Shown one piece after another: positions 4,521 to 55,303 of a stretch of 64,000 nt of DNA. Under the pieces are notes generated by a model, which ran no database searches, had not been told where the DNA came from, and saw nothing but the letters and a program-made list of their open reading frames with translations. This DNA is from Candidatus Firestoneibacteriota bacterium (GTDB lineage Bacteria > Oederibacteriota > D2-FULL-39-29). How positions within the stretch are numbered: position 1 is the stretch's first letter; the number at the start of each line of letters is the position of its first letter. The DNA is taken from NCBI GenBank assembly GCA_903928075.1, contig CAIYPD010000076.1, forward strand, positions 10,292 through 74,291, written 5' to 3'. Both the position numbers and the translations under genes were made by a program.

Positions 4521-4579
4521 ATGTAGTTGCCTGATTTATCAGGCATTTTTAAAGCGCCCAATGAATTGGGCAACTACAT
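4521..4579 (-). promoter_or_regulatory. nested inverted-repeat element at the 3' end of the URO-D-like gene (outer 11-bp arms enclosing two 7-bp hairpins)
   Basis: Outer arms ATGTAGTTGCC (4521-4531) and GGCAACTACAT (4569-4579). Inner hairpins GCCTGAT-TT-ATCAGGC and GCCCAAT-GA-ATTGGGC. No U-tract follows, so it is not a canonical intrinsic terminator. Confidence 0.4.
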
Positions 4580-5692
4580 TGTTTGCAATAGCTTCTTTTT
4601 CCGCTCGATATAATACTTGAAATTTTCATAAGATACTTCAGGAGATATAGTGTGATCAATGGTAGGTATGTAACCGCCCTCTTCTCTCAGGGGCAGGAGC
4701 TTTTTTTCAAGTTCTTCATCTATCATTCTTTTATTGCCAAAAAGTTTTCTTTTATCAATTCCCCCTATAAGAGCAACATCTTTTCCGTATTCTTTCCTTA
4801 CTTTCACCGGGTCCATACCGGCAGCACCCTCGAGCGGCCAGATACAGGTTGCGCCCGCTTCGATAATAAGCGGAATCAAAGGTTCAATATTTCCGTCACT
4901 GTCAAGTTCTATGAATTTCACGCCTTTGCTTTTCACAAAATTGAACATTTGCTTATGCCGCGGCAGGAAAAACTCCCTGTAGGTGGCGGGAGAAAGCAGA
5001 GGTCCGGACTTGCAGGCAAAATCTTCATTGCAAATAAAAGTATCAATCTCAACTTCGTTGAGCGCTTTTTCTGTGACCTGCATAAAATATTCCACAAAAA
5101 AATCCAAAATTTCGTGTACAAGTTCCGGCTGGTCATAAAAAGCGTAGGAAAGCCGTTCCGTCCCCATCATCTCCCGCAAATTCCAGTAAAGGCCGGCAAA
5201 GCCGCAGTTATCGCATAAATAAAGGGGAAAATCCCTCTTCTTCCATTCTATTTTTTTCTTTTCCCAGTCCGCCGGATATCTTTCAGGAAGTTTAGAATCA
5301 AAATGTTTTTTAAATTCAAGAAAATCCACCCGGGTCTTTACATAGAAATCCATAAAGGTGTCCATGGACATCCTGGTCCCGCGCACTTCGCCTTCCTTTA
5401 AACCCCTCCGGGTCTGCCCCCAGTTATCAATATACACAATGTACCTTTCCGTCTCTTCTATTACCTTATGAAGGCCCGGCAGAGGGTCAAACTTCAGTTT
5501 AATATATTCCCGCCTGTCCAGCTCCGCTGCTTTTGGTTCACCCCGGAACCAGTCACCTTTGATATCTTCTTCCCTGGCCCCTTCGTCCAGCCACCTTTGA
5601 TAGGTCTGCCCCCAGACTCCGAGCTCATAGTTCGGTATCCTGTCAACCGCCTTAAAACTCATCGTATTTATATATCTTTCTCTCGCATTCAT
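4574..5692 (-). CDS. uroporphyrinogen-decarboxylase (URO-D) family protein, subfamily b (methyltransferase-like); likely start at 5692, ORF track extends to 5767
   Basis: N-terminal RERYINTMSFKAVDRIP is the URO-D/MtaA family signature (ERVLxAxxxExxDRVP). C-terminal GGYIPTIDH. SD GGAGGAAAAGGA precedes the ATG at 5690-5692. The 25-codon in-frame extension is translated from a conserved leader repeat. Confidence 0.75.
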   Translation of the reverse strand: MNARERYINTMSFKAVDRIPNYELGVWGQTYQRWLDEGAREEDIKGDWFRGEPKAAELDRREYIKLKFDPLPGLHKVIEETERYIVYIDNWGQTRRGLKEGEVRGTRMSMDTFMDFYVKTRVDFLEFKKHFDSKLPERYPADWEKKKIEWKKRDFPLYLCDNCGFAGLYWNLREMMGTERLSYAFYDQPELVHEILDFFVEYFMQVTEKALNEVEIDTFICNEDFACKSGPLLSPATYREFFLPRHKQMFNFVKSKGVKFIELDSDGNIEPLIPLIIEAGATCIWPLEGAAGMDPVKVRKEYGKDVALIGGIDKRKLFGNKRMIDEELEKKLLPLREEGGYIPTIDHTISPEVSYENFKYYIERKKKLLQTM

Positions 5693-5711
5693 AATATATC
5701 CTTTTCCTCCG

Positions 5712-5800
5712 CTTCTCCGCCAAAAAGCGTTGGCGGATTTCGCAATGCTCAACTTCTCATTATTCATCTTGTTTTTCTTCTATCTATTGCTCCATTGCTC
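5712..5800 (-). repeat. conserved ~90-bp 5' leader, copy A (about 90% identical to copy B at 16942-17037), containing a CCGCCAA..TTGGCGG hairpin and a CAATAGATAGAAG motif
   Basis: By-eye alignment to 16942-17037. On the sense strand it carries ATGAATAATGAGAAGTTGAGCATTGCGAAATCCGCCAACGCTTTTTGGCGGAGAAGC. Confidence 0.7.
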
Positions 5801-9756: not shown

Positions 9757-9818
9757 GCGCAAAAACCTGCTAACTCAGGAGTTGCTTCGCGCCCCAGTGG
9801 CGCTTTCACTTGCAACTT
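9757..9818 (-). promoter_or_regulatory. rpsO terminator / pnp leader stem-loops in the rpsO-pnp spacer
   Basis: Sense strand shows an extended hairpin AGTTGCAAGTGAAAGCGCC-ACTGG-GGCGCGAAGCAACT, followed by CCTGAGTTAGCAGG and a TTTTTGC tract. This is the position of the RNase III-processed pnp leader in model bacteria. Confidence 0.5.
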
Positions 9819-9854
9819 CCTGCATATTTCTTTTTTTATTCAAAACGGCTTGTC

Positions 9855-10121: not shown

Positions 10122-10252
10122 ATTTTACTTCCTCCTTTGTTCGCGCGGCGACCAGTAAATCCCTGAGATACCTGCACCCGGTAAAAAAACCGTCTGCTCT
10201 TTCTTTCGTGATAAACCCAGTCTGCCCGTAGCGGAGCCTTTTTCCCCTACTA

Positions 10253-12099: not shown

Positions 12100-14181
12100 T
12101 CATATTACAACTACGGCCGATTCTGCAGGCACAACTATCTTTCCGGAAGCATTTTTCCATTCCCCGCCGTCTACCAGCCTGTATTTTTTGAAGCTCTGAC
12201 CGTTATCCGCTTTTATTTTAAGTGAAACGGCTTTTTTATTATTGTAGTTGGCTATGGCCACTCCCAACTTTTTTGTTTTCCGGTTTATAAACGAAGTATA
12301 AGGGTGGTGCGCTTTGCCCTTGGCATCCTTGACCGAAACACCCACTGTATCCCTGAACTCGCCGTGCCAGAAATAATCCGCAAGCTCCGTCCGTAGAACA
12401 TCCATCTTCTTTGCATATTCTAGGGTGACAGGATAGTCATCAAGATGTCCTTTGAAGTTGTAAGGCTCATGGCTTATCACATATTTGTAGAGCAAGCACT
12501 GGTTAACCATATTCCGATCCTCAAAGCCCGTAATGGCGGTCATTATGTTGGCTGTCGGGAAAATATACCGTGATATGGGCGTATGTCCTCTTTCACCGGA
12601 TCTGAAATATGAATTCTCATATGTTTCAAATTCCCAGAAATATATAGCCTCACCCGCGTACAGGAAATCTTTATTTACTTTATCAGAAAGCTTTCTAAAG
12701 TTTTTAATGAGCTGCCTGTCATTCGCGTAAACCGGAGCGCCATACCTGTGGCCGTGGCTCATATCAAAGCAGGCCTGTGTACTGTGATGATGGAAACACT
12801 CATCAAAAAGTATCCCCGCCGCGCCAAGGTCCAATGTCTTTTGAAATTCTTTGTTACAGAGTTTCAGATATTCTTTATCCTGCAAACACATAGGAATAAG
12901 CCGTTTGGTATTGATATCCATCAACTGTGTCGCGGTCTGATATTGATAACCAGGATGATAATAATGATTCCCGTAGGGGTCTTTTATTGTGAGTTTTTTG
13001 TATTTCTTCACAAAGTCCTTGGTCCCCTGGTCCGCCCAGGTGAACTTCGCAAACAATATAACCTTTACTCCCATGGCGTGGATCTTTACGATGGCCTCTT
13101 TCAGTTCTTCAAAAGTCCCGAGCCTGGGGTCCGGGTCATGGGAAGGGTTGCCCTGGTCCTGTCCACCATCGTTCCAGCCGACAAGCTGAATTGCCGCAAT
13201 TCCGTGCCTGGCGCACTCTTCACCAACCTTCGGAAGGTCCTTGAACTTCATCCTGAGTTCATCCTCCGGAGAATTGATATGCAGCTGCAGCCAGGAATGA
13301 ACACCCTTAGCCCAGGAAGCTTTCTTTGATGTTTTAAGCCATTTACTCTGCCATTCTTTATAAATATCGGCGCCCACATGCCAGCCGCCCTTGTAAGCCT
13401 GAAGTACTATCGGTGTTAATTCTCTGGTCTCTCCCGGGTTTATGTAGGGAATATGTATCGCGCCGAAACGGGTATGAACATCCTTCCCCGCCATGGTAAG
13501 CGTTTCAGGAACTTTTTTTTCCATCTCACTGGACCAACCCGGCCTTAGCTCCGCGTGCCAGGCATGTGTATCACAGCTGTTGGTGGCCGGCCCCATGTAA
13601 AGCCCCTGGGTCGGAGTGCGAAGCAGTATAAAGACCTGGTAAGGGAAGTTACCGCATATCTGAATAGGGTAATCAACGCCAAAATACCCTTTTGTATTGA
13701 TAAATTCCGGCCAGAGACTCCAGTCATTTACGCTGGAATAGCCCGGAAAAGTAAATTTCGTCCACTCATCATTCTTCGGATGCTGAATATCCCCTATATA
13801 GGGGCAGTAGAAGTTCTCTACCATATATGAGGAGTCGTTCTTGATGGTTGAATAGTATATTGCCTGTTTGTCGGTGAGCTTTATCTTTATGGTGACCTTT
13901 ATTTTATGAAAACCTCCGAACTCCGAGGTAACGCCGTCCCAGACAAAGGTTATTTCCTTTTTATTCTTTGCGACCAGGCACGAAGTGACAGCCTGTTTTT
14001 CTCCAATCACATCATTATTTCTTTTTCCCGGGAGAGGCACCATCATCCTGAAAGAAAGTCCGAGTTGCGGCCTGTTAAGTAATTCCCACCCGGTCACTTT
14101 AGAAGTGAGGCGGGTAAGCGCGCCATTCACGGTATTAAACTCCATCTTCAAAGTCTTATTCTCAAGTGTTACTACCGGCAT
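12100..14181 (-). CDS. putative glycoside hydrolase (TIM-barrel, family unassigned), no signal peptide
   Basis: 693 aa. Central block GWNDGGQDQGNPSHDPDPRLGTFEELKEAIVKIHAMGVKVILF is typical of hydrolase-like (beta/alpha)8 barrels, with flanking beta-rich domains. SD AGGGGGAA upstream. Confidence 0.45.
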   Translation of the reverse strand: MPVVTLENKTLKMEFNTVNGALTRLTSKVTGWELLNRPQLGLSFRMMVPLPGKRNNDVIGEKQAVTSCLVAKNKKEITFVWDGVTSEFGGFHKIKVTIKIKLTDKQAIYYSTIKNDSSYMVENFYCPYIGDIQHPKNDEWTKFTFPGYSSVNDWSLWPEFINTKGYFGVDYPIQICGNFPYQVFILLRTPTQGLYMGPATNSCDTHAWHAELRPGWSSEMEKKVPETLTMAGKDVHTRFGAIHIPYINPGETRELTPIVLQAYKGGWHVGADIYKEWQSKWLKTSKKASWAKGVHSWLQLHINSPEDELRMKFKDLPKVGEECARHGIAAIQLVGWNDGGQDQGNPSHDPDPRLGTFEELKEAIVKIHAMGVKVILFAKFTWADQGTKDFVKKYKKLTIKDPYGNHYYHPGYQYQTATQLMDINTKRLIPMCLQDKEYLKLCNKEFQKTLDLGAAGILFDECFHHHSTQACFDMSHGHRYGAPVYANDRQLIKNFRKLSDKVNKDFLYAGEAIYFWEFETYENSYFRSGERGHTPISRYIFPTANIMTAITGFEDRNMVNQCLLYKYVISHEPYNFKGHLDDYPVTLEYAKKMDVLRTELADYFWHGEFRDTVGVSVKDAKGKAHHPYTSFINRKTKKLGVAIANYNNKKAVSLKIKADNGQSFKKYRLVDGGEWKNASGKIVVPAESAVVVI

Positions 14182-14249: not shown

Positions 14250-15488
14250 TTACCCCTCCGTTATCTTCCTTACAATCCCCACCCACTTCTTCAATCTGGA
14301 AACATCGCCTTGAAGAGTCTCAACATCTTTTAATGTAATGTGCCAGTAACTTTCCTTGAAGGCGTCCTTTGCGTCAGTGATTATCCTTTTTATCCGGTCT
14401 TCATCCCAGGAGGTGCAGACCATATCGGTGGGATTGGGCCTGAAGGAACAGATGTAATCTTTTTTTATCTGTTCGGCGCATTTACGATAGTTAGCAACCG
14501 GCGTCACGGCAATGCTTCTCAAGTTCTTTACCTTCCGGAGCATATCTATTTTTTTTGTAAGATCCTCACAGCACCCGTAATGCGTCATCGCAAATTTTTC
14601 CATTATCGGCTGCTGGTACCGGAGCATAAATTCGTCATGAAACTCCGGCGAGACCAGCGTCAATTCCTGAGAGGCCATAAAGCCCCAGAGCTCTTTTCTC
14701 TTTGAGGGCGTATTGGGTTTGCGCCAGGGAAGCTCATTGCAATACGGCATTGCCTGGTTACCGCTCATGGTCAGCGTAAAATGCCCCGCCTCCTCCGCCT
14801 CCTGCTGATTCGTCAGTATCCCATCCCGCATAAAAGCCAGGAGTTGATGCAGTTCCTTCGGACTCTCGTACATATCCAGCATCATCTGCTCAAGCCCCCG
14901 GATATTAGCCAGGTCAGTGGAAATATCCCCCATAAAGCCAAGATACGCAGGGCCCCTTATTATATCTATCGGAATTATTTTACCTATCGCTTCGGCAAGT
15001 CTGTTATATTTTCTTTTTGTATCCTCTTCGTCTATCGCATGGTGCAGGGCTTTGATTTTTCCAATATCCTTCCAGTCTTTTATAATAGCATCAAGATGAA
15101 ATGCGCCGCCTTTCTGGGCAGACTTCGTCATCTGCCGTTCAACTCCCCAGTGATTATCCCAGGTCCCTTCCCGGGTTCCGGCAAGTTCTATCCAGGGCTC
15201 ATTTACGGCATCATGCCCGGTTTCTTCTGATAAAAGCCGAAATTTAAATGTCCGTTCGTAACCCCTGAAAAACTCATCTTCACACGCCATGTTTTTATCA
15301 GAAAACATCTCCTTACACCAGGCCTCCCAAAATCCGTTATTCAATAGGATGGGCGGCCGCGTTTTCTTTTTATTAAAATGGTCGCTCCAGAGCTTCCTTC
15401 TTTCTTCCTGAATAGGCTTAGTCGCAATTTCCATATATTGCCTGGCAAGGTCCTGTACTATTTTAATATCTTTTTGATTAGTAGGCAT
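14250..15488 (-). CDS. uncharacterised ~415-aa paralog family 'c' protein (copy 1 of 3), partner of the URO-D-like gene
   Basis: Shares with 50337-51608 and 57450-58706 an N-terminal P(V/I)Q(K/E)E...LW motif. Also shares a C-terminal YGCCE(D/P)L(T/D)KKI...R(K/S)I(A/S)V(T/S)P(V/W)A...DY(I/V).S and (H/P)(I/V)EFI(L/I)KD. SD AAGGAGA upstream. Confidence 0.6.
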   Translation of the reverse strand: MPTNQKDIKIVQDLARQYMEIATKPIQEERRKLWSDHFNKKKTRPPILLNNGFWEAWCKEMFSDKNMACEDEFFRGYERTFKFRLLSEETGHDAVNEPWIELAGTREGTWDNHWGVERQMTKSAQKGGAFHLDAIIKDWKDIGKIKALHHAIDEEDTKRKYNRLAEAIGKIIPIDIIRGPAYLGFMGDISTDLANIRGLEQMMLDMYESPKELHQLLAFMRDGILTNQQEAEEAGHFTLTMSGNQAMPYCNELPWRKPNTPSKRKELWGFMASQELTLVSPEFHDEFMLRYQQPIMEKFAMTHYGCCEDLTKKIDMLRKVKNLRSIAVTPVANYRKCAEQIKKDYICSFRPNPTDMVCTSWDEDRIKRIITDAKDAFKESYWHITLKDVETLQGDVSRLKKWVGIVRKITEG

Positions 15489-15852
15489 CTAATCTCCTTT
15501 GTATAGATAACAAGACCAAATGTACAGCAAACAGCTAACGGATGTACGGCTAATACCTTCTTTCTTTTGCTGTCTGCCTTGCATCCAATCCTCCGCTCTT
15601 CTATCTTTCACTTTGTACCTTGTCCTCCAAAGAACTTCTTTGGAGAGATCTCGCCTAATGGCGGATACTTCGTACTTTGTACTCTTGTTATCTTGTATTC
15701 TTCTCTACTCTTGCCAACCCTCTCCGCCAAGTTTGCTTGGCGAGATCTCGCTGTAAGCGGACAACCATCCACTTTTCCGTCCTCAGTCCTCCGGCTTCTG
15801 GCCTCATGTTTTCACTCTTGCCAAGCCTCTAACCATCCAAACATCCAATCCT
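15489..15852. repeat. repeat-rich 364-bp spacer with palindromic REP/MITE-like units
   Basis: Perfect 10-bp-arm palindrome CTCCAAAGAA-C-TTCTTTGGAG at 15626-15646. Two copies of (palindrome)-AGATCTCGC-(TAATGGCGGA / GTAAGCGGACAACC). Internal direct repeats CATCCAATCCTC at 15581 and 15841. Related unit at 41481-41580. Confidence 0.7.
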
Positions 15853-16923
15853 CTATCTATACTTGCCGTAGTTCTTTGCTGTTTCATACATCGCGAGCAC
15901 ATTTTCTGTCGGCGAATTATCCTGCAGAGCGTGAGTAGGCGCAAAACAATAACCGCCGCCCGGCATCATAATATCCAGCGTTTTTTCACAATATTTTACG
16001 GTATCTTCAACCTTACCAAAAGCCACAGGTCCGGCCGTACTTATACAGCCGTGGAAAGCAAGACGCCCGCCGAATTTTTTCTTTAAATACTCGGGGGACA
16101 TATTTGCCGCTTCCGGCTGGAGGGTATCCACCACATTTATGCCCATCTCAATAAAATCTTCATAAGCCCAACTACTGCTACCGCAGGTATGAATCATCAC
16201 AGGAAGCTTAAAACTTTTAGCCATGTCTATTATTTTTTGATGAAAAGGCCTGATTGCTCTTCTATATAGTTCCAGGCTTATCATCGGCGCAATCTGGGTC
16301 CCCAGGTCTTCCCCCATCCATAAAAAATCTACAGCGCCCTTAGCGGCTTCAATGGTCCGTCTGGTTATTTCGAGGTTAATATCGACCCTGCGCTTTGCCA
16401 GAAGCAGCCCCGCCGGTTCATCCGTCATAAGGTCAACTAAAACCTGTTCCATTCCCCGTACCATTCCGCTTGAATTAATAATGTCGCCGAGTCCGGCTCC
16501 GCCCACATATAGAGCATACTCTTTATTCTTTTTGCAATGTTCCTGTACCCCGGAAAAATCAAATTTGTCCGGATCCGGCATCGGCCAGTTAGCCACCTCT
16601 TCTTCCGTGGCATTCTGTAGCGGGAAATCACAAAAATCAAGGTAACCTCCGCTCTCATGTTCTATCCAGCGTGTATGCATACCCCAGTCGTTTACCTTCA
16701 CCCCTCTTTCAGGTATATCCTTATGAAGTTTTGGCCCAAGATATTTTGTCACTCCAACCCCGCGAAAATCCACGCCCAGCACATTTATGAGTTCATCTCC
16801 GTCTTTGACCTTAAAATGCTTTATAAGCCTCTCGTTTATGCCCGGATTGGCCGCGTAGTTTATCGGCACCCGGTCCGGTGTTCTATTCGCAAAAGTAGTG
16901 AGTACGCGTTCTTTAGAATTCAT
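15853..16923 (-). CDS. URO-D family protein, subfamily b (likely start at 16923, ORF track extends to 16953)
   Basis: MNSKERVLTTFANRTPDRVP family signature. HTCGSS (HxCG) segment. C-terminal MMPGGGYCFAPTHA. SD AAAAAGGAG 7 nt before the ATG. Confidence 0.8.
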   Translation of the reverse strand: MNSKERVLTTFANRTPDRVPINYAANPGINERLIKHFKVKDGDELINVLGVDFRGVGVTKYLGPKLHKDIPERGVKVNDWGMHTRWIEHESGGYLDFCDFPLQNATEEEVANWPMPDPDKFDFSGVQEHCKKNKEYALYVGGAGLGDIINSSGMVRGMEQVLVDLMTDEPAGLLLAKRRVDINLEITRRTIEAAKGAVDFLWMGEDLGTQIAPMISLELYRRAIRPFHQKIIDMAKSFKLPVMIHTCGSSSWAYEDFIEMGINVVDTLQPEAANMSPEYLKKKFGGRLAFHGCISTAGPVAFGKVEDTVKYCEKTLDIMMPGGGYCFAPTHALQDNSPTENVLAMYETAKNYGKYR

Positions 16924-16941
16924 TTTTCTCCTTTTTATCAG

Positions 16942-17037
16942 CTTCTCCGCCACAAAGTGTTGGCGGATTTCGCTATGCTCAACTTCTCATAATTCATCTT
17001 GTTTTTCTTCTATCTATTATCTATTGTTCCATTATTC
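16942..17037 (-). repeat. conserved 5' leader, copy B (paralog of 5712-5800)
   Basis: About 90% identity to copy A by eye. Sense strand encodes a 19-codon upstream ORF MNYEKLSIAKSANTLWRRS ending at a TGA just before the SD. Contains a CCGCCA..TGGCGG hairpin. Confidence 0.7.
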
Positions 17038-17289
17038 TACCCCGGGAGAAGGTATGGATGAGGGTAATGGTTTTCTAATCTCCATAAGAGTCGTAAAGGT
17101 CTATAAATGAAAACAATATATTTCAACGATTTTAGACCTTAAGAACCTTAAGAACCTTAAAAACTTTATAAACTTCTTTTTCCCTCTTTCCCCAATTGTA
17201 TCTATTTGGCCAGCCAATTGCAAGAATTTTACCTGACGGTTCACTTAAGAAATCCTGAATCAGGATAAACTTGATTTTAATAAAGCATA

Positions 17290-18813
17290 ATGTTATTATC
17301 CCTTATGATTAAGAACCCCAATGTCCTACTTATAACCACCGACCAGCAGAGATTTGATTCCATTGCCGCACTCGGAAACTCAAAGATAAAAACACCCAAC
17401 CTTGATAAACTTGTAAAAAACGGGGTGGCCTTCACGCGAGCTTATTCCTCATGTCCCGAATGCGTACCGGCAAGAATAACAATTAAAACCGGGATGCCGC
17501 CGTGGCGGAGCGGTTCTACTAACAACGGTGAGAAGATAAAACCAAACACCGATACCCTTATGTCAGTTTTAGCCAAAGGCGGCTACCACACCCAGGCCAT
17601 AGGCAAGATGCATTTTATTCCTACAAGAGCAAAATTCGGGTTCAAAGAGATGTGGCTTTCCGAGGAAGTACCGATAAAAGCAAGTGAGGATGAATTTTTA
17701 ACAGAACTTATAAAAAAAGGGTACGGCCACGCGGAAGAACCGCACGGAATGAGGAGCTTTCTATATTATGTACCGCAGGTCTCCCAGCTCCCCGAAAAAT
17801 TGCACACGACCGCCTGGACCGGAAGAAAGACCGTAGAATATTTAGCCCGGCGGAAGAAATCAAAGCAGCCGTTTTTTCTCTGGACTTCTTTTATCAAGCC
17901 GCATCCGCCCTTCGATCCGCCGGTGCCTTTTAACAGCATGTACAATCCGCTTGACATGGACCTTCCCATTCAAGAGAAAGACGCCGATAAAAATTACACC
18001 TTCTGGAATTACTGCCAGAACCGGTATAAATGGATGGAAAGTAACCGTAACGATGTCTTTAAACAGGCGCAAAAAGCTTTCTACTACGCCTGCATAAGTT
18101 TTGTCGACAAACAACTGGGCCTGATATTTGAGGCCTTGAAAAAGAACGGCCAGCTTAAAAATACGGTTATAGTTTTCACCGCCGACCATGGCGAATACCT
18201 CGGGGACCATTTCTGCTACGGCAAACGAGGCTTTCAGGATTCCGCGGCCAGGGTGCCTTTTATTATTTCCTACCCGGCCTATCTGCCTAAAAACAAAAGG
18301 GTTGAGGCGCCCGTCGGACACGCTGACATAATGCCGACTATCTTAAGCCTTTGTAATCTGGATTACAGAAAACCGCAGTACGGCTGGGATCTGACGCCTA
18401 AAATGAAAAATCCCTTTTCCAGCGCGAGGAAATATTTCTACGCCCAGTACAACAGAAAAGGTTATGCTATTTATATGTGCATGGATTCAAAATGGAAATA
18501 TATCTATGATGTGGCCGGAAAAAGAGAAATATTCTATAACTTTATAAAGGACCCGAAAGAAATAACAAATCTGGCCGGAAAGACTAAATACAGGAAAGAG
18601 AAATTAAGATTAAAGCAGGAACTAATAAAGCACTTTAAAGAACAGGGGAATTTTGAGGCAATAAAAGGAACTGAGTTCCGGTCCTACGCCAATAAGAACT
18701 TGAAACGCTATAAGAACCTGTCCGGCATAAATAATAATTCGAAAGACGGCCGGCTCTTCCAGTATGCGCTTTGGACCAATAGGAACAGTGACATGTGGAG
18801 CTCTTTAATGTAG
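17290..18813 (+). CDS. Cys-type sulfatase (arylsulfatase family), no signal peptide
   Basis: LLITTDQQRFD metal-binding N-terminus. Formylglycine motif C-V-P-A-R in SSCPECVPARITIKTG. 507 aa. Confidence 0.9.
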   Translation: MLLSLMIKNPNVLLITTDQQRFDSIAALGNSKIKTPNLDKLVKNGVAFTRAYSSCPECVPARITIKTGMPPWRSGSTNNGEKIKPNTDTLMSVLAKGGYHTQAIGKMHFIPTRAKFGFKEMWLSEEVPIKASEDEFLTELIKKGYGHAEEPHGMRSFLYYVPQVSQLPEKLHTTAWTGRKTVEYLARRKKSKQPFFLWTSFIKPHPPFDPPVPFNSMYNPLDMDLPIQEKDADKNYTFWNYCQNRYKWMESNRNDVFKQAQKAFYYACISFVDKQLGLIFEALKKNGQLKNTVIVFTADHGEYLGDHFCYGKRGFQDSAARVPFIISYPAYLPKNKRVEAPVGHADIMPTILSLCNLDYRKPQYGWDLTPKMKNPFSSARKYFYAQYNRKGYAIYMCMDSKWKYIYDVAGKREIFYNFIKDPKEITNLAGKTKYRKEKLRLKQELIKHFKEQGNFEAIKGTEFRSYANKNLKRYKNLSGINNNSKDGRLFQYALWTNRNSDMWSSLM

Positions 18814-18881
18814 CAGGTGCCGTCCTTAAATTATAGTCGAAAGAAGTTTAATAAGTATCATTCCCGCCGCAAAAAGCAGTA

Positions 18882-18974
18882 TCAGCGAAAAATAAAACCT
18901 CCTCCGATGTCAAACATCCCTGACAAAAAACCCACGGCCAGTCCTAAGACCACAAACCCGAAATATTCCAGCAT
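18882..18974 (-). pseudogene. 30-codon remnant of a TauE/SafE-type exporter N-terminus, translationally coupled to the sulfatase stop
   Basis: Minus-strand ATG at 18974-18972 overlaps the sulfatase TAA (TAATG). Encodes MLEYFGFVVLGLAVGFLSGMFDIGGGFIFR then a stop. Compare the intact TauE at 35121-35912 (GIFGGMFGLGGGIIMIPLL). Confidence 0.35.
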
Positions 18975-20452
18975 TATGTTACCTGCCTGTCTACCGGCCT
19001 GCCTCCAAATTTCTTCAATGTCAGAGCGTGATTCTTTCTTCCTGTCTCAGAAAGCCTTTTACAGTAGGCTTCGATTTCTCCTCTGGCGTGGTAAGGCCCG
19101 CCTTCTTCCATTACCGTATCAAGAGGATCAACACCGCTGGTAGAAGTTCTCATCATCTCCTCGCGCCATTTTGTAAGCTTGACCAGGCCTTCGCTGCTTT
19201 TCTGAGGATTTTGTTTTGATATTTCTTTAAGCAGATGCGGGTCTTTCTTAAAATCAAAGAGCATATGCTCCGGAAAATTTTTCAGCCCTGTATGATAGGT
19301 TTTCATAAACAAAAAATCCCCGAAGATAACGGCACGCTGACAGCTCCAGGCGCACTGACTTACTACAATAAAATCTCTGGAATATTCTTTGCCTTTTTTC
19401 AGTTCCCCGGCAAAACTTTCCCCGTCCCACTTAGCAGGTACTTTAAGCTTTAAAAGTTCCAGTATAGTAGCGCCGATGTCCACCTGATAATGCAGACCCT
19501 TATCCACCCCGGGTTTAAGCAGGCCCGGCCATTTTAAAATGAAGGGCACCCGAGAAGTAATAGTATCGGCGGTCTGATGGTCACCGTATATATTAAATTC
19601 CCCCTGGTTCTCCCCATGATCGGAACTTATCATGATAACCGTATCTTCAAAAACTCCGTGTTTTTTTAACAGGTCTATTATTTTACCGGCATAATGATCC
19701 GCGTAATTTATTCCAAGGTCATAACCGTCTATCCACTGTTTATAATCCTCAAGCGACTTTATCTCGTTAGGCATTTCAAGTAACTCCGGGCCTTTAGGCA
19801 CCCCGCCGCTAAAACCATTTCTGTCCCGGGCGCTGTAGGGACCGTAGCCTTCATAATGTTCTTTAATGATCTTCTCGTTTATCCAGGCCGGAGGCGGCTC
19901 ATTCTTAAAAGGATTTCCGAATTCCTTTGGCGTTTTATAAACCGTGTGAGGATCCCACATATTCACATGCAGGAACCAGTTGTCGGTTTTCGCATTTTTA
20001 TTCAACCACTCCTCTGCGTAAGGGTAGATTTCATCGGCTCTTTCACTGCCGTGTTTACCGGTATTGAACATCTCTTTAAATCCGGAATAGAACCACCAGG
20101 AAGCGTGTCTTTCGGCAAACGGGCTGACGGATACGGTATGCAGGCCGCTTTTCTTCAGAGTAGTCACAAACGATTGGAACTCAGGTGAGTCACTAAAACC
20201 CCTGTTTTTACCTTCCGGGTAAGGGTCGGCGTTAAGCCCACCGTGATTTACCACCCCCGAATGTATTCCGAACCTTCCTCCGAAAAAAGAACTGCGGGAA
20301 GGCAGACAGGGCGCATCGGAAGCAAAACACTTTTCAAACCTGACCCCGCTTTCAGCTACCTTATCAATATTCGGGGAGGTTTTCCTGTGATAACCGTAAC
20401 AGCCGAGGTGGTCGGCTCTAAGCGTATCTATATCAAGGTAGAGTATTCTCAT
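18974..20452 (-). CDS. Cys-type sulfatase, no signal peptide
   Basis: ILYLDIDTLRADHLGCYG. Formylglycine motif C-L-P-S-R in DAPCLPSRSS. 492 aa. Confidence 0.9.
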   Translation of the reverse strand: MRILYLDIDTLRADHLGCYGYHRKTSPNIDKVAESGVRFEKCFASDAPCLPSRSSFFGGRFGIHSGVVNHGGLNADPYPEGKNRGFSDSPEFQSFVTTLKKSGLHTVSVSPFAERHASWWFYSGFKEMFNTGKHGSERADEIYPYAEEWLNKNAKTDNWFLHVNMWDPHTVYKTPKEFGNPFKNEPPPAWINEKIIKEHYEGYGPYSARDRNGFSGGVPKGPELLEMPNEIKSLEDYKQWIDGYDLGINYADHYAGKIIDLLKKHGVFEDTVIMISSDHGENQGEFNIYGDHQTADTITSRVPFILKWPGLLKPGVDKGLHYQVDIGATILELLKLKVPAKWDGESFAGELKKGKEYSRDFIVVSQCAWSCQRAVIFGDFLFMKTYHTGLKNFPEHMLFDFKKDPHLLKEISKQNPQKSSEGLVKLTKWREEMMRTSTSGVDPLDTVMEEGGPYHARGEIEAYCKRLSETGRKNHALTLKKFGGRPVDRQVT

Positions 20453-21543
20453 TGTCTTATTCCTCCTGCCAATGTTTTCAATCTCACAATACTGTAACCG
20501 AAAAACTCTTTATAGGCTTCACACAGATAGTCCAAAGAACTGAAATTATCGTCTTTTATCAATCTGTATTTTAGACAGCCCCCGTTACATATATATTTCC
20601 ATTTGCAAAGCGCGCATTTTTCATTTACATCTGCTTTTTTAACCCCGAAATTTTCTTTAGCAAGACGGAAAGAATCCTCAAAGGAGGCATCTTTTATGCT
20701 CCCGAGTTTCCTCTCTTTCTTCACAAAAAAGTCGCAAGGATAGATATCCCCGTTATATTCCAGTGCAAGATAGTCGCCGCAGGTGCTCTTAAAACCGCAA
20801 TAGGTGGCATCATAGCCCGAAAGTATTTCCAGGATATTATCAAAAAATCTTACCGAGACCGCCGGCTTGCCTCCGTTCCACCACAGATCAAAGAATTCGC
20901 ATAAAAATTTACAGTAGGTTTTTGAGTCTACCGAAAATTCTGATAGCTTTCCCATGCTGTCCTTTTCCACACACGGGATAAGTTGAACAAAGTCAAAACC
21001 CTCTTTGACATAGAAATTATAAAGGTCTGCAGGCCGGGCAGCATTAAAACTATTTATTACGGTCAGTATATTAAAATCCAGTTCTAATTCTCTTAATAAC
21101 GCAATTCCTTTCATGGCTCCTTCAAAACTCTTCCCCCTGTGAAACTCATGCATGGGCCTGTCCCCATCCAGACTGATACCCAGCAGAAAATTATATTCCT
21201 TGAAAAGTTTTATGAATTCTTCATTCAATAATGTTCCGTTTGTCTGGACACTGTTGCCGACCCTCTGGCCTTTTTTTCCGTGTTTTTGCTGAAGCTCAAT
21301 AACTCTGCGGTAAAAAGTAACTCCGGCAAGCAGAGGCTCCCCGCCCTGCCAGGAAAATACCGCCAAACCCCCGTTTGAATACTGCATGGCCTTTAAAACA
21401 AGGGTTTCAAGGATTTTATCTTCCATGAGATGCTTGCCCGCCCCATAAATTGATTCCGTAGATTTATAAAAACAATAAGAACAGGCCAAGTTACAATCAA
21501 ATGACACAGGTTTAACTAAGAGTTCAATATTTTTCAAAGTCAA
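20449..21543 (-). CDS. anaerobic sulfatase-maturating enzyme (radical SAM, SPASM domain)
   Basis: CNLACSYC (CX3CX2C) radical-SAM cluster. C-terminal Cys-rich SPASM region CALCKWKYICNGGCLKYR. 4-bp overlap with the upstream sulfatase indicates an operon. Confidence 0.9.
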   Translation of the reverse strand: MTLKNIELLVKPVSFDCNLACSYCFYKSTESIYGAGKHLMEDKILETLVLKAMQYSNGGLAVFSWQGGEPLLAGVTFYRRVIELQQKHGKKGQRVGNSVQTNGTLLNEEFIKLFKEYNFLLGISLDGDRPMHEFHRGKSFEGAMKGIALLRELELDFNILTVINSFNAARPADLYNFYVKEGFDFVQLIPCVEKDSMGKLSEFSVDSKTYCKFLCEFFDLWWNGGKPAVSVRFFDNILEILSGYDATYCGFKSTCGDYLALEYNGDIYPCDFFVKKERKLGSIKDASFEDSFRLAKENFGVKKADVNEKCALCKWKYICNGGCLKYRLIKDDNFSSLDYLCEAYKEFFGYSIVRLKTLAGGIRQ

Positions 21544-50336: not shown

Positions 50337-51608
50337 CTATTTTTTCACAATTTTCATCACTGTATCGGCCCATTCGGTAAGTCTTTTTGGTTCGTAGTTT
50401 ACCGTGCTCAAGTCCTTAAGGATGAATTCTACCGGGGTGCCGTTCTTTTTACAGTCAGTTATCACATCTTTTGTATCTTTTATTATGGCATCAAGTTCAA
50501 AGTTACCCCTGGAGAAAAACGCTGGGCTGGATTTCCTGGAAATCACATAATCCTTGCCAATCTGTTCCGTAGCATTTTTTACATCAGCCCAGGGACTTAT
50601 AGAGATTTTTCTCACATTGGGAAGTTTCCTGATAACCCCGATTTTTTTATCCAGCGGTTCACAGCAGCCGTAATACACGAGGCCAAACCTCTCATACCAT
50701 TTCTTGGCGTATTCTATCTCAAATTCGTCGTGCATAGCAGGCGAAGCCGTGGAAAATATCTGCGCCATCCCGAAGGTCCAGGTATCTTTTGCCCTGGGTT
50801 TTGCCGGGTCAAAGCCGGTCCCGATAAACTTTTCAAGGAAGGACGGCAGTTCGTTGGTATGGGCACCAGAGCAATGGATGGTTCGGAACCCGTAACCCAG
50901 CAAACCCTGCGTTTCCAACTGGTCCAGCCCTGCAAGGTACGCTTCCGAGAATCTGGAAATTATCTTGTGCATGAATTCCGGCCTTAGCGCCATGTCAAGA
51001 AGCAGCTCCCCCGCCCCGCGAAGCATTACTATAACATCCCATACCGGAAAGCCGTACATTATCCCTTCTTTTTTTACTTCAATTACCCCGGTAAAGATTT
51101 CCTGCATTGTTTCAAAATCTTTCTCGGTTTTCTCCTTGTTCAGCCTGATGGCGGGATTTTTTATTTTTTGAATATCTTCTTCTTCCTTAATCTGGTCATT
51201 GTAGAAGTGCCCCACGACATCATTATTAACATCGGTCACGGCCTTTTCTGTTTCCTTAACCTTTATACCAAAATCCCACCCTTCGACAACCGGGGAGGAA
51301 CGCAGAACCGGCTCTATTACCATATCTGTCCTGAAATGCTTCCACTTATAAAGTTCGCGCCTTAACTTTGTTTCTATATTCCGGCAGAAGGGGTCAGAGG
51401 TCTTTAATGTTAACTCCCCTTCAGCGTTCAATTCATGCCACGGCAGTTGATCTATCATGACCATCGGCCGCACCGGCTTTAAACTGTTTATGGCTTTCCA
51501 AAGGGTAATCGTCTCCTTTTGTACGGGAAGTTCTGCTATTTCTCTATACTTTTTACCCAGCTCCCTGAGTATCCCCTTGTCTTGCGCGCTTATTGAAATC
51601 ATTTCCAT
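50337..51608 (-). CDS. paralog family 'c' protein (copy 2 of 3)
   Basis: ELPVQKETITLWKAINSLKPVRPMVMIDQLPWHELN ... YGCCEPLDKKIGVIRKLPNVRKISISPWAD ... PVEFILKDLSTV. SD AAAAAGGAGA. Confidence 0.6.
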   Translation of the reverse strand: MEMISISAQDKGILRELGKKYREIAELPVQKETITLWKAINSLKPVRPMVMIDQLPWHELNAEGELTLKTSDPFCRNIETKLRRELYKWKHFRTDMVIEPVLRSSPVVEGWDFGIKVKETEKAVTDVNNDVVGHFYNDQIKEEEDIQKIKNPAIRLNKEKTEKDFETMQEIFTGVIEVKKEGIMYGFPVWDVIVMLRGAGELLLDMALRPEFMHKIISRFSEAYLAGLDQLETQGLLGYGFRTIHCSGAHTNELPSFLEKFIGTGFDPAKPRAKDTWTFGMAQIFSTASPAMHDEFEIEYAKKWYERFGLVYYGCCEPLDKKIGVIRKLPNVRKISISPWADVKNATEQIGKDYVISRKSSPAFFSRGNFELDAIIKDTKDVITDCKKNGTPVEFILKDLSTVNYEPKRLTEWADTVMKIVKK

Positions 51609-51695: not shown

Positions 51696-52732
51696 TTATT
51701 TATTATAGGTTCCAAACTCCCTTATAGTCTCGCACATCGCAAGAACATTTTCTATGGGGGTCGCCTCCAGAACAGTATCATGACTGGCCCCCGCCACATA
51801 CCCGCCGCCCGGCATCATTATTTTCAGTATTTCTTTTGTCCTCTCCCTTACTACCTCAGGGGTGCTTTCCATCAGTATATGGTGGGAATCTATACCGCCG
51901 TTGAAGACTATTTTTTTCCCGTAATTATTTTTCAGTTCAACAAGGTTCATCCCGACACAGGTCGTCTGTACGGCATGTAAAGCATCCAGGCCGACACTAA
52001 TCAAATCTGGAATCAAAGGCTCAATACCTCCACAGCAATGAAGCTGGACTTTAAGTTTATAGGCGTGTCCTAGATCTATAAGTTTCTTAAAGTGAGGAAG
52101 CAAAAATCGCCGGAATTGTTCCGGGCTTAAAAGCGGGCCGTTCTGACTCCCCAAGTCGTTCCCCATGAAAAAAATATCAATATATTTTCCGGCCGTATCA
52201 AATGTTTTTTTATTTACTTCAAAATAGAAAGAGGAAAGATGTTCGAACACCGCGTCCACAATCTCAGGTTCGTCGTACATCTTTAGGCAGAGGTTTTCCA
52301 TTCCAAAAAGATCAATGGCTTCATGCCAGAACGGAGACCAGAACCCGCCCATAATCGCATATTTCCCTTTGTGTTTTTCCGCCTGCGCTTTTATCCCCGA
52401 GGCGTCAAACCATTTCGGATCCGGCCAGGCATAAGCATGCACCTCTTTTAATGTTGCATTTGCGAGCGGATGATTAAGCGGTTGACCGCAGCCCACTCCC
52501 GCGCGTTTGATTCCGAGCCTATTAACGCCGTCTTTTAAGTCCGGGCCAATATCAGAAGCATGAACGGCCCTGAAATCATCTTCAAGCATCTGCTTTAGTC
52601 CTTCATCATCAAGGGAGAGCTTCTTTTGCATCCCTTCCCACATCTCGCGGGAAGCCCCAAACCAAAGCGGTACCCGATCCGGCTCCTCATGCGCAAAAGC
52701 AGTTAATACCCGTTCCCTCGAAGTCATCACCA
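51696..52732 (-). CDS. URO-D family protein, subfamily b (start at 52732, ORF track extends to 52805)
   Basis: MTSRERVLTAFAHEEPDRVP. LHCCGG. MMPGGGYVAGASHD. SD GGAGGAAATATTATG. Confidence 0.8.
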
Positions 52733-52915
52733 TAATATTTCCTCCAAAATAGATAGATAACAAGCTAACAAGACGACAAGATAACAAAGTTAAAGCAAAT
52801 AGCAAATTACTGAATTTCTTTATTGTTTTTGTACTCTTATTTTCTTGTATTCTTTTATATTTTATTTTATTTATTAGCCAATTAGAAATTAGTAATCAGA
52901 AATTCGAGACGGCGT

Positions 52916-55291: not shown

Positions 55292-55303
55292 TAATTCCTC
55301 CTC

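What the first reader, a model, noticed from the sequence alone, without database searches (positions are those of the whole stretch)
14250..16923. Module 1: URO-D subfamily-b gene, structured 364-bp spacer, then a ~415-aa family-c gene
The same b-c gene order recurs at 50337-52732, and a c-a pair recurs at 56449-58706. Three repeats of 'one URO-D-superfamily member plus one family-c member' argue for a functional two-component unit. By analogy with MT1/MT2 pairs, these would be a substrate-specific and an acceptor-specific methyltransferase.
Basis: seen in the sequence. Interest (0 to 1): 0.7.

Follow-up and report, generated by a model that had tools for sequence, protein, structure and literature searches.

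The report
Paired URO-D-fold enzymes in fucose loci
The gene pairs are real, but "family c" is a deeply diverged, unannotated branch of the same URO-D/MtaA enzyme fold; it sits only sometimes beside a classical URO-D gene, usually in fucose/rhamnose-utilisation loci of anaerobes, and may be a sugar-demodifying (possibly O-demethylating) enzyme.

Summary
On the minus strand, b1 (15853-16923), a 364-bp spacer and c1 (14250-15488) form a module. The pattern recurs as b2-c2 (87-bp gap) and c3-a (4-bp overlap). With random gene order, all three c genes would touch a URO-D gene with P of about 0.006.

- The pairing is optional. A URO-D gene lies directly beside c in 4 of 51 fully visible c1-type loci and 6 of 29 c3-type loci.
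- No corrinoid protein or activase is encoded in the window. Only 2 of 173 related loci have a corrinoid protein, and both lie next to c3.

Orthologues of c3 and b2 sit with GH29/GH95 fucosidases, RhaM mutarotase, sugar transporters and AraC regulators.

My best reading is a set of independent, co-regulated cytoplasmic URO-D-fold enzymes acting on fucose/rhamnose-type sugars. Their chemistry may be methyl-ether removal, but that step is inferred. The spacer is built from dispersed intergenic repeats and is not module-specific. I rate this a new variant of a known kind, of moderate interest.

The parts
15853..16923 (-). b1: URO-D/MtaA-superfamily protein. It is 356 aa from the ATG; the ORF extends to 16953 with a GTG start. 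It carries an H-T-C-G motif.
   Evidence: ORF. Pfam PF01208 E 7e-13. NCBIfam MtaA-type models hit below their cut-offs. 32% identical to b2. Orthologues of 356/357 aa in L001. Motif seen in the alignment.
15489..15852 (-). 364-bp b1-c1 spacer. It is purine-rich on the coding strand, rich in hairpins and built from dispersed intergenic repeats.
   Evidence: Fold z = -4.3. No Rfam hit. Internal direct and inverted repeats. Motifs shared with the intergenic regions at 41.5 kb, 50.2 kb and 52.8 kb. Not conserved in L001, where a second b copy and a hexapeptide acetyltransferase occupy this position.
15640..15657 (.). Copy 1 of the palindromic repeat TTGGnGAGATCTCG.
   Evidence: 5 matches in the window against 1.3 expected, confined to this spacer and 41507-41541.
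15737..15750 (.). Copy 2 of the palindromic repeat TTGGnGAGATCTCG.
14250..15488 (-). c1: 412-aa cytoplasmic protein with a divergent URO-D (beta/alpha)8 fold and the invariant motif Y304-G-C306-C307-E308.
51696..52733 (-). b2: URO-D-family protein with H-C-C-G-G and S-H-D motifs. It belongs to a subfamily that is 61-66% identical across phyla.
   Evidence: Pfam PF01208 E 2e-28. 3558 homologues. It is the recurrent URO-D neighbour of c3 orthologues. Its contexts hold rhaM, RhaT/SSF, GH29 and FucI.
50337..51608 (-). c2: family-c paralogue of 423 aa, 87 bp downstream of b2.
   Evidence: 38% identical to c3 and 28% to c1. No Pfam hit.
57450..58706 (-). c3: family-c paralogue of 418 aa. Its stop overlaps the start of 'a' by 4 bp.
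   Evidence: More than 4400 homologues at about 60% identity across PVC phyla. Its neighbours are enriched for GH29, GH95, rhaM, SSF, RhaT, ABC transporters and AraC.
56449..57453 (-). a: MtaA/CmuA-like URO-D-family protein of 334 aa with an intact H-x-C...C zinc-ligand pattern.
   Evidence: Pfam URO-D E 4e-72. TIGR01463 167 bits, below the 235 cut-off. Best PDB hit MtaA 4ay7 at E 9e-21, with LHICGN and GCE aligned to the MtaA ligands.
60364..61365 (-). a2: second MtaA-like URO-D paralogue, first gene of the same minus-strand gene string.
   Evidence: Pfam URO-D E 4e-56. 36% identical to a. LHICG and GGCE motifs.
4574..5767 (-). Fifth URO-D-superfamily paralogue, 397 aa. It has D-S-D in place of H-x-C and is not next to a c gene.
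   Evidence: Pfam URO-D E 3e-16. Alignment.
52916..54217 (-). GH29 alpha-L-fucosidase, between a and b2 in the same gene string. It has no signal peptide.
   Evidence: Pfam Alpha_L_fucos E 2e-91. N-terminus shown.
54263..56365 (-). Aldo/keto reductase (54263-55291) and Zn-dependent alcohol dehydrogenase (55304-56365), between a and GH29.
   Evidence: The public gene calls show the same order.
58788..60284 (-). 498-aa secreted or lipoprotein-like protein with no family assignment, between a2 and c3.
   Evidence: No Pfam hit. Not related to c or URO-D. Signal-peptide-like N-terminus.
12100..14181 (-). DUF6259/DUF5696 protein (glycosidase-like) immediately downstream of c1.
   Evidence: Its orthologue lies in the syntenic part of L001.
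17290..21543 (.). Upstream context of module 1: two sulfatases (17290-18813 on +, 18974-20452 on -) and a radical-SAM/SPASM maturase-like gene (20449-21543 on -).
   Evidence: Synteny with L001.

Best explanation
SHOWN.
- Module 1 is two neighbouring cytoplasmic paralogues of the URO-D/MtaA (beta/alpha)8 superfamily.
- b1 is a recognisable member.
- c1 belongs to a large branch with no Pfam or NCBIfam model, about 3000 clusters at 50% identity. Compared with URO-D it has roughly 100 unaligned N-terminal residues, an insertion, and an invariant Y-G-C-C-E motif. The first Cys of that motif aligns with the zinc-ligand Cys of the H-x-C motif.
- The window holds eight such paralogues: five URO-D-type and three c-type. 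They lie inside cytoplasmic sulfatase and fucosidase gene strings.
- In other genomes c genes mostly stand alone. c3-type and b2-type genes sit next to GH29/GH95 fucosidases, RhaM mutarotase, monosaccharide transporters (SSF, RhaT, ribose-type ABC) and AraC regulators. A URO-D gene is the direct neighbour in only about 8-21% of loci.

INFERRED.
- The paralogues are separate, substrate-specific enzymes of one regulon. They act on imported fucose/rhamnose-type (6-deoxyhexose) sugars. They are not an obligate two-subunit enzyme.
- The chemistry most consistent with the superfamily is metal-assisted methyl (alkyl) transfer. That would be removal of O-methyl ethers from methylated deoxyhexoses so that the standard fucose/rhamnose pathways can proceed.
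- The methyl group would pass to a corrinoid carrier encoded elsewhere or used free, and then to a thiol or folate acceptor through the MtaA-like 'a' proteins.
- The 364-bp spacer is a patch of dispersed intergenic repeats left where a relative carries two more genes. It is not a dedicated regulatory RNA.
For: Fold and homology of c:
- AF2 pLDDT 91.
- Foldseek PDB top hits are UROD, followed by MtaA.
- hhalign gives 97.2%, E 3.7e-11.
- A URO-D HMM built without any c sequence still detects 169 of 171 c ORFs.

Family size: 3022, 1806 and 717 cluster representatives at E <= 1e-3, 1e-10 and 1e-30.

Optional pairing: plus the L001 synteny.

Sugar context:
- GH29 lies within 1.5 kb in 15 of 80 c3 loci against 1 of 80 c1 loci.
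- Pfam census of the immediate neighbours of c3: Peripla_BP_4 9, GH29 8, URO-D 7, SSF 6, AraC 6, rhaM 5, RhaT 4, GH95 3.
- In Anaerohalosphaera lusitana the order is AraC, SASA, GH29, c3, b2, SSF, rhaM.
- b2 orthologues lie beside rhaM, RhaT, SSF, GH29 and FucI.

Methyl-transfer leaning:
- 'a' and a2 keep the MtaA H-x-C...C ligands, and 'a' hits MtaA at E 9e-21.
- TIGR01463 matches 'a' at E 5e-49.
- b1 and b2 keep H-x-C.
- The only two corrinoid proteins found in 2.04 Mb of related loci both lie within 1 kb of a c3 gene. In L144 it is directly downstream on the same strand. In L154 it sits beside DUF1638.
- All characterised non-HemE members of the superfamily are alkyl or methyl transferases (PMC10418091).

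No signal peptides on c, b, a, GH29 or the sulfatases.

Spacer.
Against: - No corrinoid protein, activase or pterin-binding MT2 was found in the window. 171 of 173 related loci also lack a corrinoid protein. Known corrinoid methyltransferase systems are normally encoded together.
- The two corrinoid-linked loci come from one metagenome, and their c3 genes are 83% identical. They are not fully independent.
- The metal site of c is inferred from an alignment, not from coordinates. The His of H-x-C is not conserved across the c subfamilies: it is H in c1 and Y in c3.
- The 4574-type paralogue has D-S-D instead of H-x-C, so not every paralogue need be a thiolate-zinc enzyme.
- No paper linking URO-D-like proteins to fucose or rhamnose loci or to sugar demethylation was found.
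- The context evidence is for c3 and b2. c1 itself has almost no conserved neighbourhood.
Confidence: 0.4

Rival explanations
1. Each b-c or c-a pair is a dedicated MT1/MT2 couple of a corrinoid-dependent methyltransferase system: one barrel demethylates the substrate and the other methylates the acceptor. The corrinoid protein and activase would be encoded elsewhere.
For: - There are three adjacent pairs in one window (P about 0.006), and c3-a overlap by 4 bp.
- URO-D genes are enriched next to c in other phyla.
- 'a' looks like the MT2 enzyme MtaA.
- There are two c3 loci with an adjacent corrinoid protein.
Against: - Direct adjacency is seen in only 4 of 51 and 6 of 29 fully visible loci.
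- The partner subfamily varies. It is b1, b2, a or the 4574-type.
- In the nearest relative the pair is interrupted.
- No corrinoid protein is present in the window or in 171 of 173 loci.
- c3 often sits alone beside a transporter.
Confidence: 0.15
2. The c, b and a proteins are not methyltransferases. They would be URO-D-fold enzymes recruited for another step of 6-deoxyhexose metabolism, such as an isomerase, epimerase, lactonase or decarboxylase acting on fucose- or rhamnose-derived intermediates.
For: - Gene order in L170 is RhaT, rhaM, b2, kinase-like PRK. That places b2 where an isomerase would sit.
- c3 is frequently paired only with a transporter or mutarotase.
- Corrinoid genes are generally absent.
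- The window operon also has an AKR and a Zn-ADH.
- The H of H-x-C is not conserved in c, and the 4574-type lacks Cys.
Against: - No characterised member of this superfamily performs such chemistry (PMC10418091).
- 'a' and a2 retain the exact MtaA zinc ligands.
- FucI co-occurs with b2 in L173, so b2 is not simply replacing it.
- Invariant Cys-Cys-Glu is atypical for sugar isomerases (general knowledge).
Confidence: 0.28
3. b and c form a heterodimeric 'split MetE-like' double barrel. It would carry out corrinoid-independent alkyl or methyl transfer between a sugar ether and a thiol or folate.
For: - There are two divergent homologous barrels side by side.
- No corrinoid gene is nearby.
Against: - Most c genes have no adjacent URO-D gene.
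- No fused b-c protein appears among the 150 best representatives, nearly all of which are about 410 aa.
- Direct displacement on an unactivated methyl ether is chemically demanding (inference).
Confidence: 0.07
4. The adjacency has no functional meaning. It would be a by-product of tandem duplication and divergence, or of general clustering of sugar-catabolic genes.
For: - All partners are paralogues of one superfamily.
- L001 has a fresh tandem duplication of b.
- c1 orthologues have essentially no conserved neighbourhood.
Against: - c and b are far too diverged to be recent duplicates (hhalign only, 13% identity).
- The c3-b2 pair recurs on the same strand in several phyla, with both partners about 60% conserved.
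- c3 and a overlap by 4 bp, which suggests translational coupling.
Confidence: 0.1

Closest known systems
MtaA/MtbA/MtsA methylcobamide:coenzyme M methyltransferases (MT2; PDB 4ay7)
   Same: - They share the (beta/alpha)8 URO-D fold.
- 'a' and a2 share the H-x-C...C zinc ligands, and 'a' hits 4ay7 at E 9e-21.
   Different: - All window proteins score below the NCBIfam cut-offs for MtaA, MtbA and CmuA.
- There is no cognate corrinoid protein or MT1 gene nearby.
- The genomic context is fucosidases and sugar transport, not methanogenesis.
- c has Y-G-C-C-E instead of H-x-C, plus about 100 unaligned N-terminal residues and an insertion.
Ether-cleaving methyltransferase I of anaerobic O-demethylases (OdmB, VdmB, MtvB type; URO-D superfamily)
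   Same: - They belong to the same superfamily.
- In the known systems, multiple substrate-specific paralogues occur per genome (my own knowledge).
- They catalyse anaerobic removal of O-methyl groups, which is the chemistry proposed here.
   Different: - Known enzymes act on aryl methyl ethers.
- They are encoded with a corrinoid protein, an MT II and an activating enzyme. Here 171 of 173 loci lack a corrinoid protein.
- No sequence comparison with OdmB or VdmB could be run. This resemblance rests on PMC10418091 and on my own knowledge.
Uroporphyrinogen decarboxylase HemE
   Different: - Identity is only 9-14%.
- TIGR01464 hemE scores are far below its cut-off.
- b and a carry the metal-type Cys/His motif that metal-free HemE does not need.
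- The context is not haem synthesis.
Cobalamin-independent methionine synthase MetE and epoxyalkane:CoM transferase (Zn-thiolate alkyl transferases of the same clan)
   Same: - They carry out corrinoid-independent zinc/thiolate chemistry.
- MetE is a pair of homologous barrels, reminiscent of the b+c pairs.
   Different: - c, b and a are single barrels of 330-420 aa.
- No Meth_synt Pfam hit was found.
- The ligand pattern differs.
Cytochrome P450 sugar O-demethylase of aerobic marine bacteria (6-O-methyl-D-galactose)
   Same: It is a possible functional analogue. It removes a methyl ether from an algal monosaccharide so that catabolism can continue, and it is encoded in polysaccharide-utilisation loci (PMC6292453).
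   Different: It has an unrelated fold, requires O2 and releases formaldehyde. The anaerobic counterpart is stated to be unknown (PMC12316285).
Type 1 mlp gene clusters (MtaA-like proteins in non-methanogens; Kountz and Balskus)
   Same: These are MtaA-like URO-D proteins present in several copies in anaerobic bacteria outside methanogenesis (PMC10418091).
   Different: mlp clusters encode a corrinoid protein and are linked to methyl-sulfur or methyl-selenide metabolism. The loci here lack the corrinoid protein and are linked to fucosidases and sugar transport.

Membership tests
URO-D / MetE-like (beta/alpha)8 superfamily | URO-D-type barrel fold | tested here: met
   [not shown]
URO-D / MetE-like (beta/alpha)8 superfamily | Detectable sequence-profile homology to recognised members | tested here: met
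   hhalign of the c profile against the URO-D paralogue profile gives 97.2%, E 3.7e-11. A URO-D HMM built without c detects 169 of 171 c ORFs at E < 1e-5. The S-P-x-x-F/H-x-x-F motif is shared.
Pfam URO-D (PF01208) | Score above the Pfam gathering threshold | tested here: met
   This is met for b1, b2, a, a2 and 4574-5767 (48.7 to 243.6 bits against a threshold of 23.9). It is NOT met for c1, c2 or c3, which have no hit even at E 0.01.
MtaA/CmuA methyltransferase family (TIGR01463; NF040654, NF041608) | Score above the NCBIfam cut-off | tested here: not met
   The best score is 'a' at 167 bits against a cut-off of 235. b2 scores 77, b1 scores 32 and c has no hit.
MtaA/CmuA methyltransferase family | Zinc ligands H-x-C ... 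C | tested here: met
   This is met for 'a' (LHICGN and GCE aligned to the MtaA ligands) and for a2. It is partial for b1 (HTCG) and b2 (HCCG, with the third ligand position occupied by S-H-D). In c, only the Cys of Y-G-C-C-E aligns. It is absent in the 4574-type (D-S-D).
Corrinoid-dependent MT1/CP/MT2 methyltransferase system | Cognate corrinoid protein (B12-binding PF02310 and PF02607) encoded with the methyltransferases | tested here: not met
   No such hit was found among the 48 ORFs retained as likely genes from those of at least 150 aa in the window. Pfam confirmed the L154 protein.
Corrinoid-dependent MT1/CP/MT2 methyltransferase system | Reductive activase (RACo or RamA type) and a pterin-binding or thiol-specific MT2 in the locus | tested here: not met
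   No such Pfam family appears in the window scans or in the context tables. An MtaA-like MT2 candidate ('a') is present.
Corrinoid-dependent MT1/CP/MT2 methyltransferase system | Methyl transfer to or from cob(I)alamin | not testable with these tools
   This needs enzyme assays.
Uroporphyrinogen decarboxylase HemE | TIGR01464 equivalog score | tested here: not met
   'a' scores 108 bits and b2 scores 24 bits against a cut-off of 303.
MetE cobalamin-independent methionine synthase | Tandem double barrel of about 750 aa with Meth_synt_1 and Meth_synt_2 domains | tested here: not met
   [not shown]
Obligate two-gene module (c + URO-D) | Conserved adjacency across genomes | tested here: not met
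   Direct adjacency occurs in 4 of 51 c1-type and 6 of 29 c3-type loci that have at least 1.5 kb on both sides. It is enriched over distant flanks but is a minority arrangement.

The most novel reading that the evidence does not exclude
Family c, together with the b2-type URO-D proteins, would be the missing anaerobic sugar O-demethylase. These would be cytoplasmic URO-D-fold methyltransferases that strip methyl ethers from fucose/rhamnose-type sugars released from methylated, sulfated glycans. They would use a shared, trans-encoded or free cobamide, or possibly no cobamide. In oxic habitats this job is done by P450 enzymes.
Probability: 0.3. Interest if true: 0.8.

Novelty: new variant of a known kind. 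Interest (0 to 1): 0.55.

Why it matters
Methyl ethers block sugar catabolism. The only known sugar demethylase is an O2-dependent P450 (PMC6292453). A 2025 paper states that demethylation of methylated galactose in anaerobes "has not been elucidated yet" (PMC12316285).

A large protein family is described here. It has about 3000 clusters at 50% identity, no Pfam or NCBIfam model, and is almost always labelled "hypothetical". It has the fold of the only enzyme class known to cleave methyl ethers anaerobically. It sits beside fucosidases, mutarotases and sugar transporters in Planctomycetota, Kiritimatiellia, Lentisphaerota, Armatimonadota and Firestonebacteria. That makes the open question directly testable with a few recombinant proteins.

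Even if the chemistry turns out different, c3 and b2 would be unrecognised components of fucose/rhamnose utilisation in abundant anaerobic glycan degraders. Annotation pipelines could at least label family c as URO-D-fold.

Tried and rejected
- Riboswitch or known RNA in the spacer. A cobalamin riboswitch would have been telling. Rfam gathering over the whole window and the E-value mode on 15400-15950 both gave nothing.
- Promoter or terminator in the spacer. None was found on the coding strand.
- The extra 229-aa ORF between b and c in L001 as a corrinoid protein. It is a hexapeptide-repeat acetyltransferase.
- The 498-aa protein 58788-60284 as another hidden c or URO-D member. There was no signal with either HMM.
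- Sequence search of c1 against PDB chains gave no hit even at E 10, so structure prediction was needed.
- My first iterative URO-D HMM absorbed family c. I rebuilt it with c excluded. That exercise itself shows the homology.
- My simple greedy ORF caller lost some c genes in high-GC loci. I replaced it with six-frame HMM labelling.
- Fold search against afdb50 was not available.
- Literature searches for URO-D with fucoidan, fucosidase, rhamnose, PVC phyla, or methylated-sugar demethylation found nothing relevant.
- AlphaFold-multimer and whole-genome scans for corrinoid genes could not be run with these tools.

Full report
**1. What is in the sequence**

All relevant genes are on the minus strand.

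Module 1:
- b1 is an ORF at 15853-16953. Its likely start is the ATG at 16923, giving 356 aa like the orthologues in L001.
- The spacer is 364 bp, at 15489-15852.
- c1 is at 14250-15488 and is 412 aa.

Module 2 is b2 (51696-52733 by the public gene call), an 87-bp gap, and c2 (50337-51608).

Module 3 is c3 (57450-58706) followed by 'a' (56449-57453), which overlap by 4 bp.

BLASTP of all window ORFs against each other gives these relationships:

| Pair | Identity | E-value |
|---|---|---|
| c1/c2 | 28% | 9e-44 |
| c1/c3 | 26% | 1e-39 |
| c2/c3 | 38% | 5e-109 |
| b1/b2 | 32% | 1e-52 |
| a/a2 (60364-61365) | 36% | 9e-59 |

A fifth URO-D gene lies at 4574-5767. Pfam PF01208 is hit by b1, b2, a, a2 and the 4574 gene. 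It is not hit by any c protein. With 5 URO-D and 3 c genes among 48 genes in random order, all three c genes touch a URO-D gene in 0.6% of shuffles.

**2. Family c is a hidden URO-D-fold family**

c1 has no Pfam, NCBIfam or PDB sequence match. It has more than 1800 homologues. Almost all are called "hypothetical". One is labelled URO-D/MetE family and one carries a precomputed PF01208 hit.

- An AF2 model built from a 33-sequence alignment has pLDDT 91.4 and pTM 0.90.
- Foldseek against the PDB returns 24 hits at E <= 1e-3. Of these, 23 are uroporphyrinogen decarboxylases and one is MtaA 4ay7.
- hhalign of the c profile against a profile of the window and locus URO-D paralogues gives 97.2% probability and E 3.7e-11. 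It covers c1 residues 108-378.
- A URO-D HMM built without any c sequence still detects 169 of 171 c ORFs.

The shared signature includes the Q...S-P-x-x-F/H-x-x-F segment. The strand-end motif also aligns: the first Cys of the c motif Y-G-C-C-E matches the Cys of the H-x-C zinc motif.

Residues conserved in at least 95% of 61 c1-, c2- and c3-type sequences are W34, R44, W54, E78, D93, D188, D205, D222, Q274, S280-P281, H284, Y304-G-C-C-E308, K313, R324, S348, K387-D388 and R398, in c1 numbering. Judged by the model's secondary structure, many of these (Q274, the Y-G-C-C-E stretch, S348, K387-D388) lie at or just after the ends of successive beta strands.

A profile search of 1.84 billion cluster representatives finds 3022, 1806 and 717 members at E <= 1e-3, 1e-10 and 1e-30. 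Nearly all are single-domain proteins of about 410 aa.

**3. Is the pair a conserved unit?**

I fetched two sets of loci:
- 80 genome loci encoding c1 orthologues (47-83% identity). They come from Firestonebacteria, Planctomycetota, Verrucomicrobiota/Kiritimatiellia, Lentisphaerota, Armatimonadota, Omnitrophota and Spirochaetota.
- 80 metagenome loci encoding c3 orthologues.

| Measure | c1 loci | c3 loci |
|---|---|---|
| URO-D gene within 1.5 kb | 11 of 80 | 13 of 80 |
| Direct adjacency, loci with >= 1.5 kb visible on both sides | 4 of 51 | 6 of 29 (all same strand) |
| URO-D density at 0-500 bp, per 100 kb | 7.9 | 20.6 |
| URO-D density at 6-10 kb, per 100 kb | 1.0 | 0 |

The association is real but is a minority arrangement.

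The URO-D neighbours of c3 orthologues that were aligned are all clear b2 orthologues, with LHCCGG...AGASHD motifs. The neighbours of c1 orthologues belong to mixed subfamilies. Only the Firestonebacteria locus L001 has b1 orthologues.

L001 is syntenic with the window from the aldo-keto reductase to the DUF6259 gene. However, it has two b copies and a hexapeptide acetyltransferase between b and c, and two HtrA-type proteases after c. The b1-c1 juxtaposition and the 364-bp spacer are therefore recent and lineage-specific.

**4. The spacer**

- It folds better than shuffled sequence (z = -4.3).
- It matches no Rfam family.
- It has no consensus promoter or terminator on the coding strand.
- It is not conserved in any fetched locus.
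- It contains two copies of a two-hairpin palindromic unit (TTGGnGAGATCTCG...). This unit also occurs twice at 41507-41541 in an unrelated intergenic region: 5 matches against 1.3 expected.
- It shares other short motifs with the intergenic regions at 50.2 kb and 52.8 kb.

I read it as a patch of dispersed intergenic repeats, not a module-specific regulatory RNA.

**5. Context**

The window encodes no corrinoid (B12-binding) protein, activase or pterin-binding methyltransferase.

Module 1 lies between a DUF6259 glycosidase-like gene and two sulfatases plus a radical-SAM/SPASM maturase-like gene.

Modules 2 and 3 are part of one minus-strand gene string: a2, a 498-aa secreted protein of unknown family, c3, a, Zn-ADH, aldo-keto reductase, GH29 fucosidase, b2, c2.

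None of c, b, a, GH29 or the sulfatases has a signal peptide.

Elsewhere, GH29 lies within 1.5 kb of c3 orthologues in 15 of 80 loci, against 1 of 80 for c1. A Pfam census of the immediate neighbours of c3 orthologues (124 ORFs) is led by:
- Peripla_BP_4: 9
- GH29: 8
- URO-D: 7
- SSF: 6
- AraC: 6
- RhaM mutarotase: 5
- ABC permease: 4
- RhaT: 4
- MFS: 4
- GH95: 3

.

Examples of gene order:
- Anaerohalosphaera lusitana: AraC, SASA, GH29, c3, b2, SSF, rhaM.
- Kiritimatiellia: AraC, c3, GH29.
- b2 orthologues: RhaT-rhaM-b2-kinase-like; rhaM-GH29-URO-D-b2; FucI-b2-SSF-rhaM-URO-D.

c1 orthologues have almost no conserved neighbourhood. URO-D, at 5 of 134 ORFs, is still the top family.

**6. Corrinoid link**

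A B12-motif scan and phmmer with a Pfam-confirmed corrinoid protein find only two corrinoid proteins in 2.04 Mb, comprising 173 loci plus the window.
- In L144 it lies directly downstream of c3 on the same strand.
- In L154 it lies beside a DUF1638 gene, about 0.8 kb from c3.

Both are within 1 kb of a c3 gene. If corrinoid genes fell at random, that would be roughly a 3% event. This is my estimate: the focal +/-1 kb neighbourhoods make up about 16% of the sequence searched. However, the two c3 genes are 83% identical and come from one metagenome. This is a hint, not proof.

**7. Interpretation**

Shown:
- The pairs consist of two paralogous URO-D-fold barrels.
- They are cytoplasmic.
- The pair is optional.
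- c3 and b2 belong to fucose/rhamnose-type sugar loci.
- 'a' and a2 carry the intact MtaA zinc site.

Inferred:
- The paralogues are independent, substrate-specific enzymes of a common regulon.
- Apart from HemE, every characterised member of this superfamily is an alkyl or methyl transferase (PMC10418091). The loci combine a fucosidase, a transporter and a mutarotase, and usually lack the downstream catabolic enzymes. For these two reasons the most economical chemistry is removal of a blocking O-methyl group from methylated deoxyhexoses.
- The carrier would be encoded elsewhere or used free.

This is not demonstrated. The general absence of corrinoid genes is the main argument against it. A non-methyl-transfer role in deoxyhexose metabolism is the chief rival. 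I rate these lower for the reasons given in the rival list.

**8. Comparison with known systems and novelty**

The b and a proteins are members of Pfam URO-D. They fall below the NCBIfam cut-offs for MtaA, MtbA, CmuA and HemE.

Family c is a member of the superfamily by fold and by profile. It belongs to no curated family.

The system lacks the defining corrinoid protein of MT1/CP/MT2 systems, so it should not be filed as one.

Anaerobic demethylation of sugars is explicitly described as unresolved (PMC12316285). The aerobic solution is a P450 enzyme (PMC6292453).

**Verdict.** This is a new variant of a known kind. Interest is moderate (0.55), and would be high if the demethylase reading proves correct.

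Noticed in passing
window 33433-33495, 37469-37520, 47762-47814; also 17136-17168: There are short tandem arrays of a 10-bp unit (CCTTTACAGA type, 4.5-6 copies) and a 9-bp ACCTTAAGA array. All are intergenic. Three lie immediately 3' of minus-strand genes (T2SSE ATPase, HhH-GPD glycosylase, LemA). Related GTCCGTAAAGGTC-like motifs also flank the ORF-poor stretch 32966-33503.
   Followed up: no
window 15640-15657, 15737-15750 and 41507-41541: A dispersed two-hairpin palindromic intergenic repeat (TTGGnGAGATCTCG plus a CGCC-TAAT-GGCG hairpin) gives 5 matches against 1.3 expected. It looks like a REP-like element of this genome.
   Followed up: partly
window 17290-18813 (+), 18974-20452 (-), 20449-21543 (-), 52916-54217 (-), 12100-14181 (-): Both sulfatases, the GH29 fucosidase and the DUF6259 protein lack signal peptides. 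A radical-SAM/SPASM maturase-like gene is adjacent. This suggests cytoplasmic desulfation and defucosylation of imported oligosaccharides.
   Followed up: partly
window 58788-60284 (-): A 498-aa protein with a lipoprotein-like signal peptide and no Pfam hit is conserved in position between two URO-D-superfamily genes in the public contigs that encode an identical c3. It is unrelated to c or URO-D by HMM.
   Followed up: partly
window 43258-44469 (+): A 403-aa ORF has a signal peptide, a beta-rich outer-membrane-protein-like composition and no Pfam family.
   Followed up: no
L154 1337-2488, 5911-6672 (-), 6682-7419 (-); L144 1393-1883: These are the only two loci of 173 with a corrinoid protein next to a c3 orthologue. 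L154 also has DUF1638 and a MetE-like Meth_synt_2 gene. In L144 the corrinoid gene follows c3 by 25 bp on the same strand. The two corrinoid proteins are 54% identical, and the two c3 genes are 83% identical.
   Followed up: partly
L001 6860-9097 and 9234-9923: The closest relative (Candidatus Firestonebacteria, c1 83% identical) has a tandem duplication of b1 and a hexapeptide-repeat acetyltransferase where the window has the 364-bp spacer. Two HtrA-like proteases are inserted after c1.
   Followed up: yes
L170, L172, L173 (b2 contexts): A further URO-D subfamily of 374-404 aa, recognised by PF01208 and possibly related to window 4574-5767, recurs next to b2, rhaM and GH29/GH38 in Kiritimatiellia and Sedimentisphaerales. 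Fucose/rhamnose loci there can therefore hold up to three different URO-D-fold paralogues.
   Followed up: partly
window 9725-10252 and 32966-33503: Two stretches longer than 500 bp have no ORF of at least 150 aa: one between PNPase and IMPDH, and one upstream of PFK. I did not examine them for small genes or RNAs. Rfam gathering found nothing anywhere in the window.
   Followed up: no
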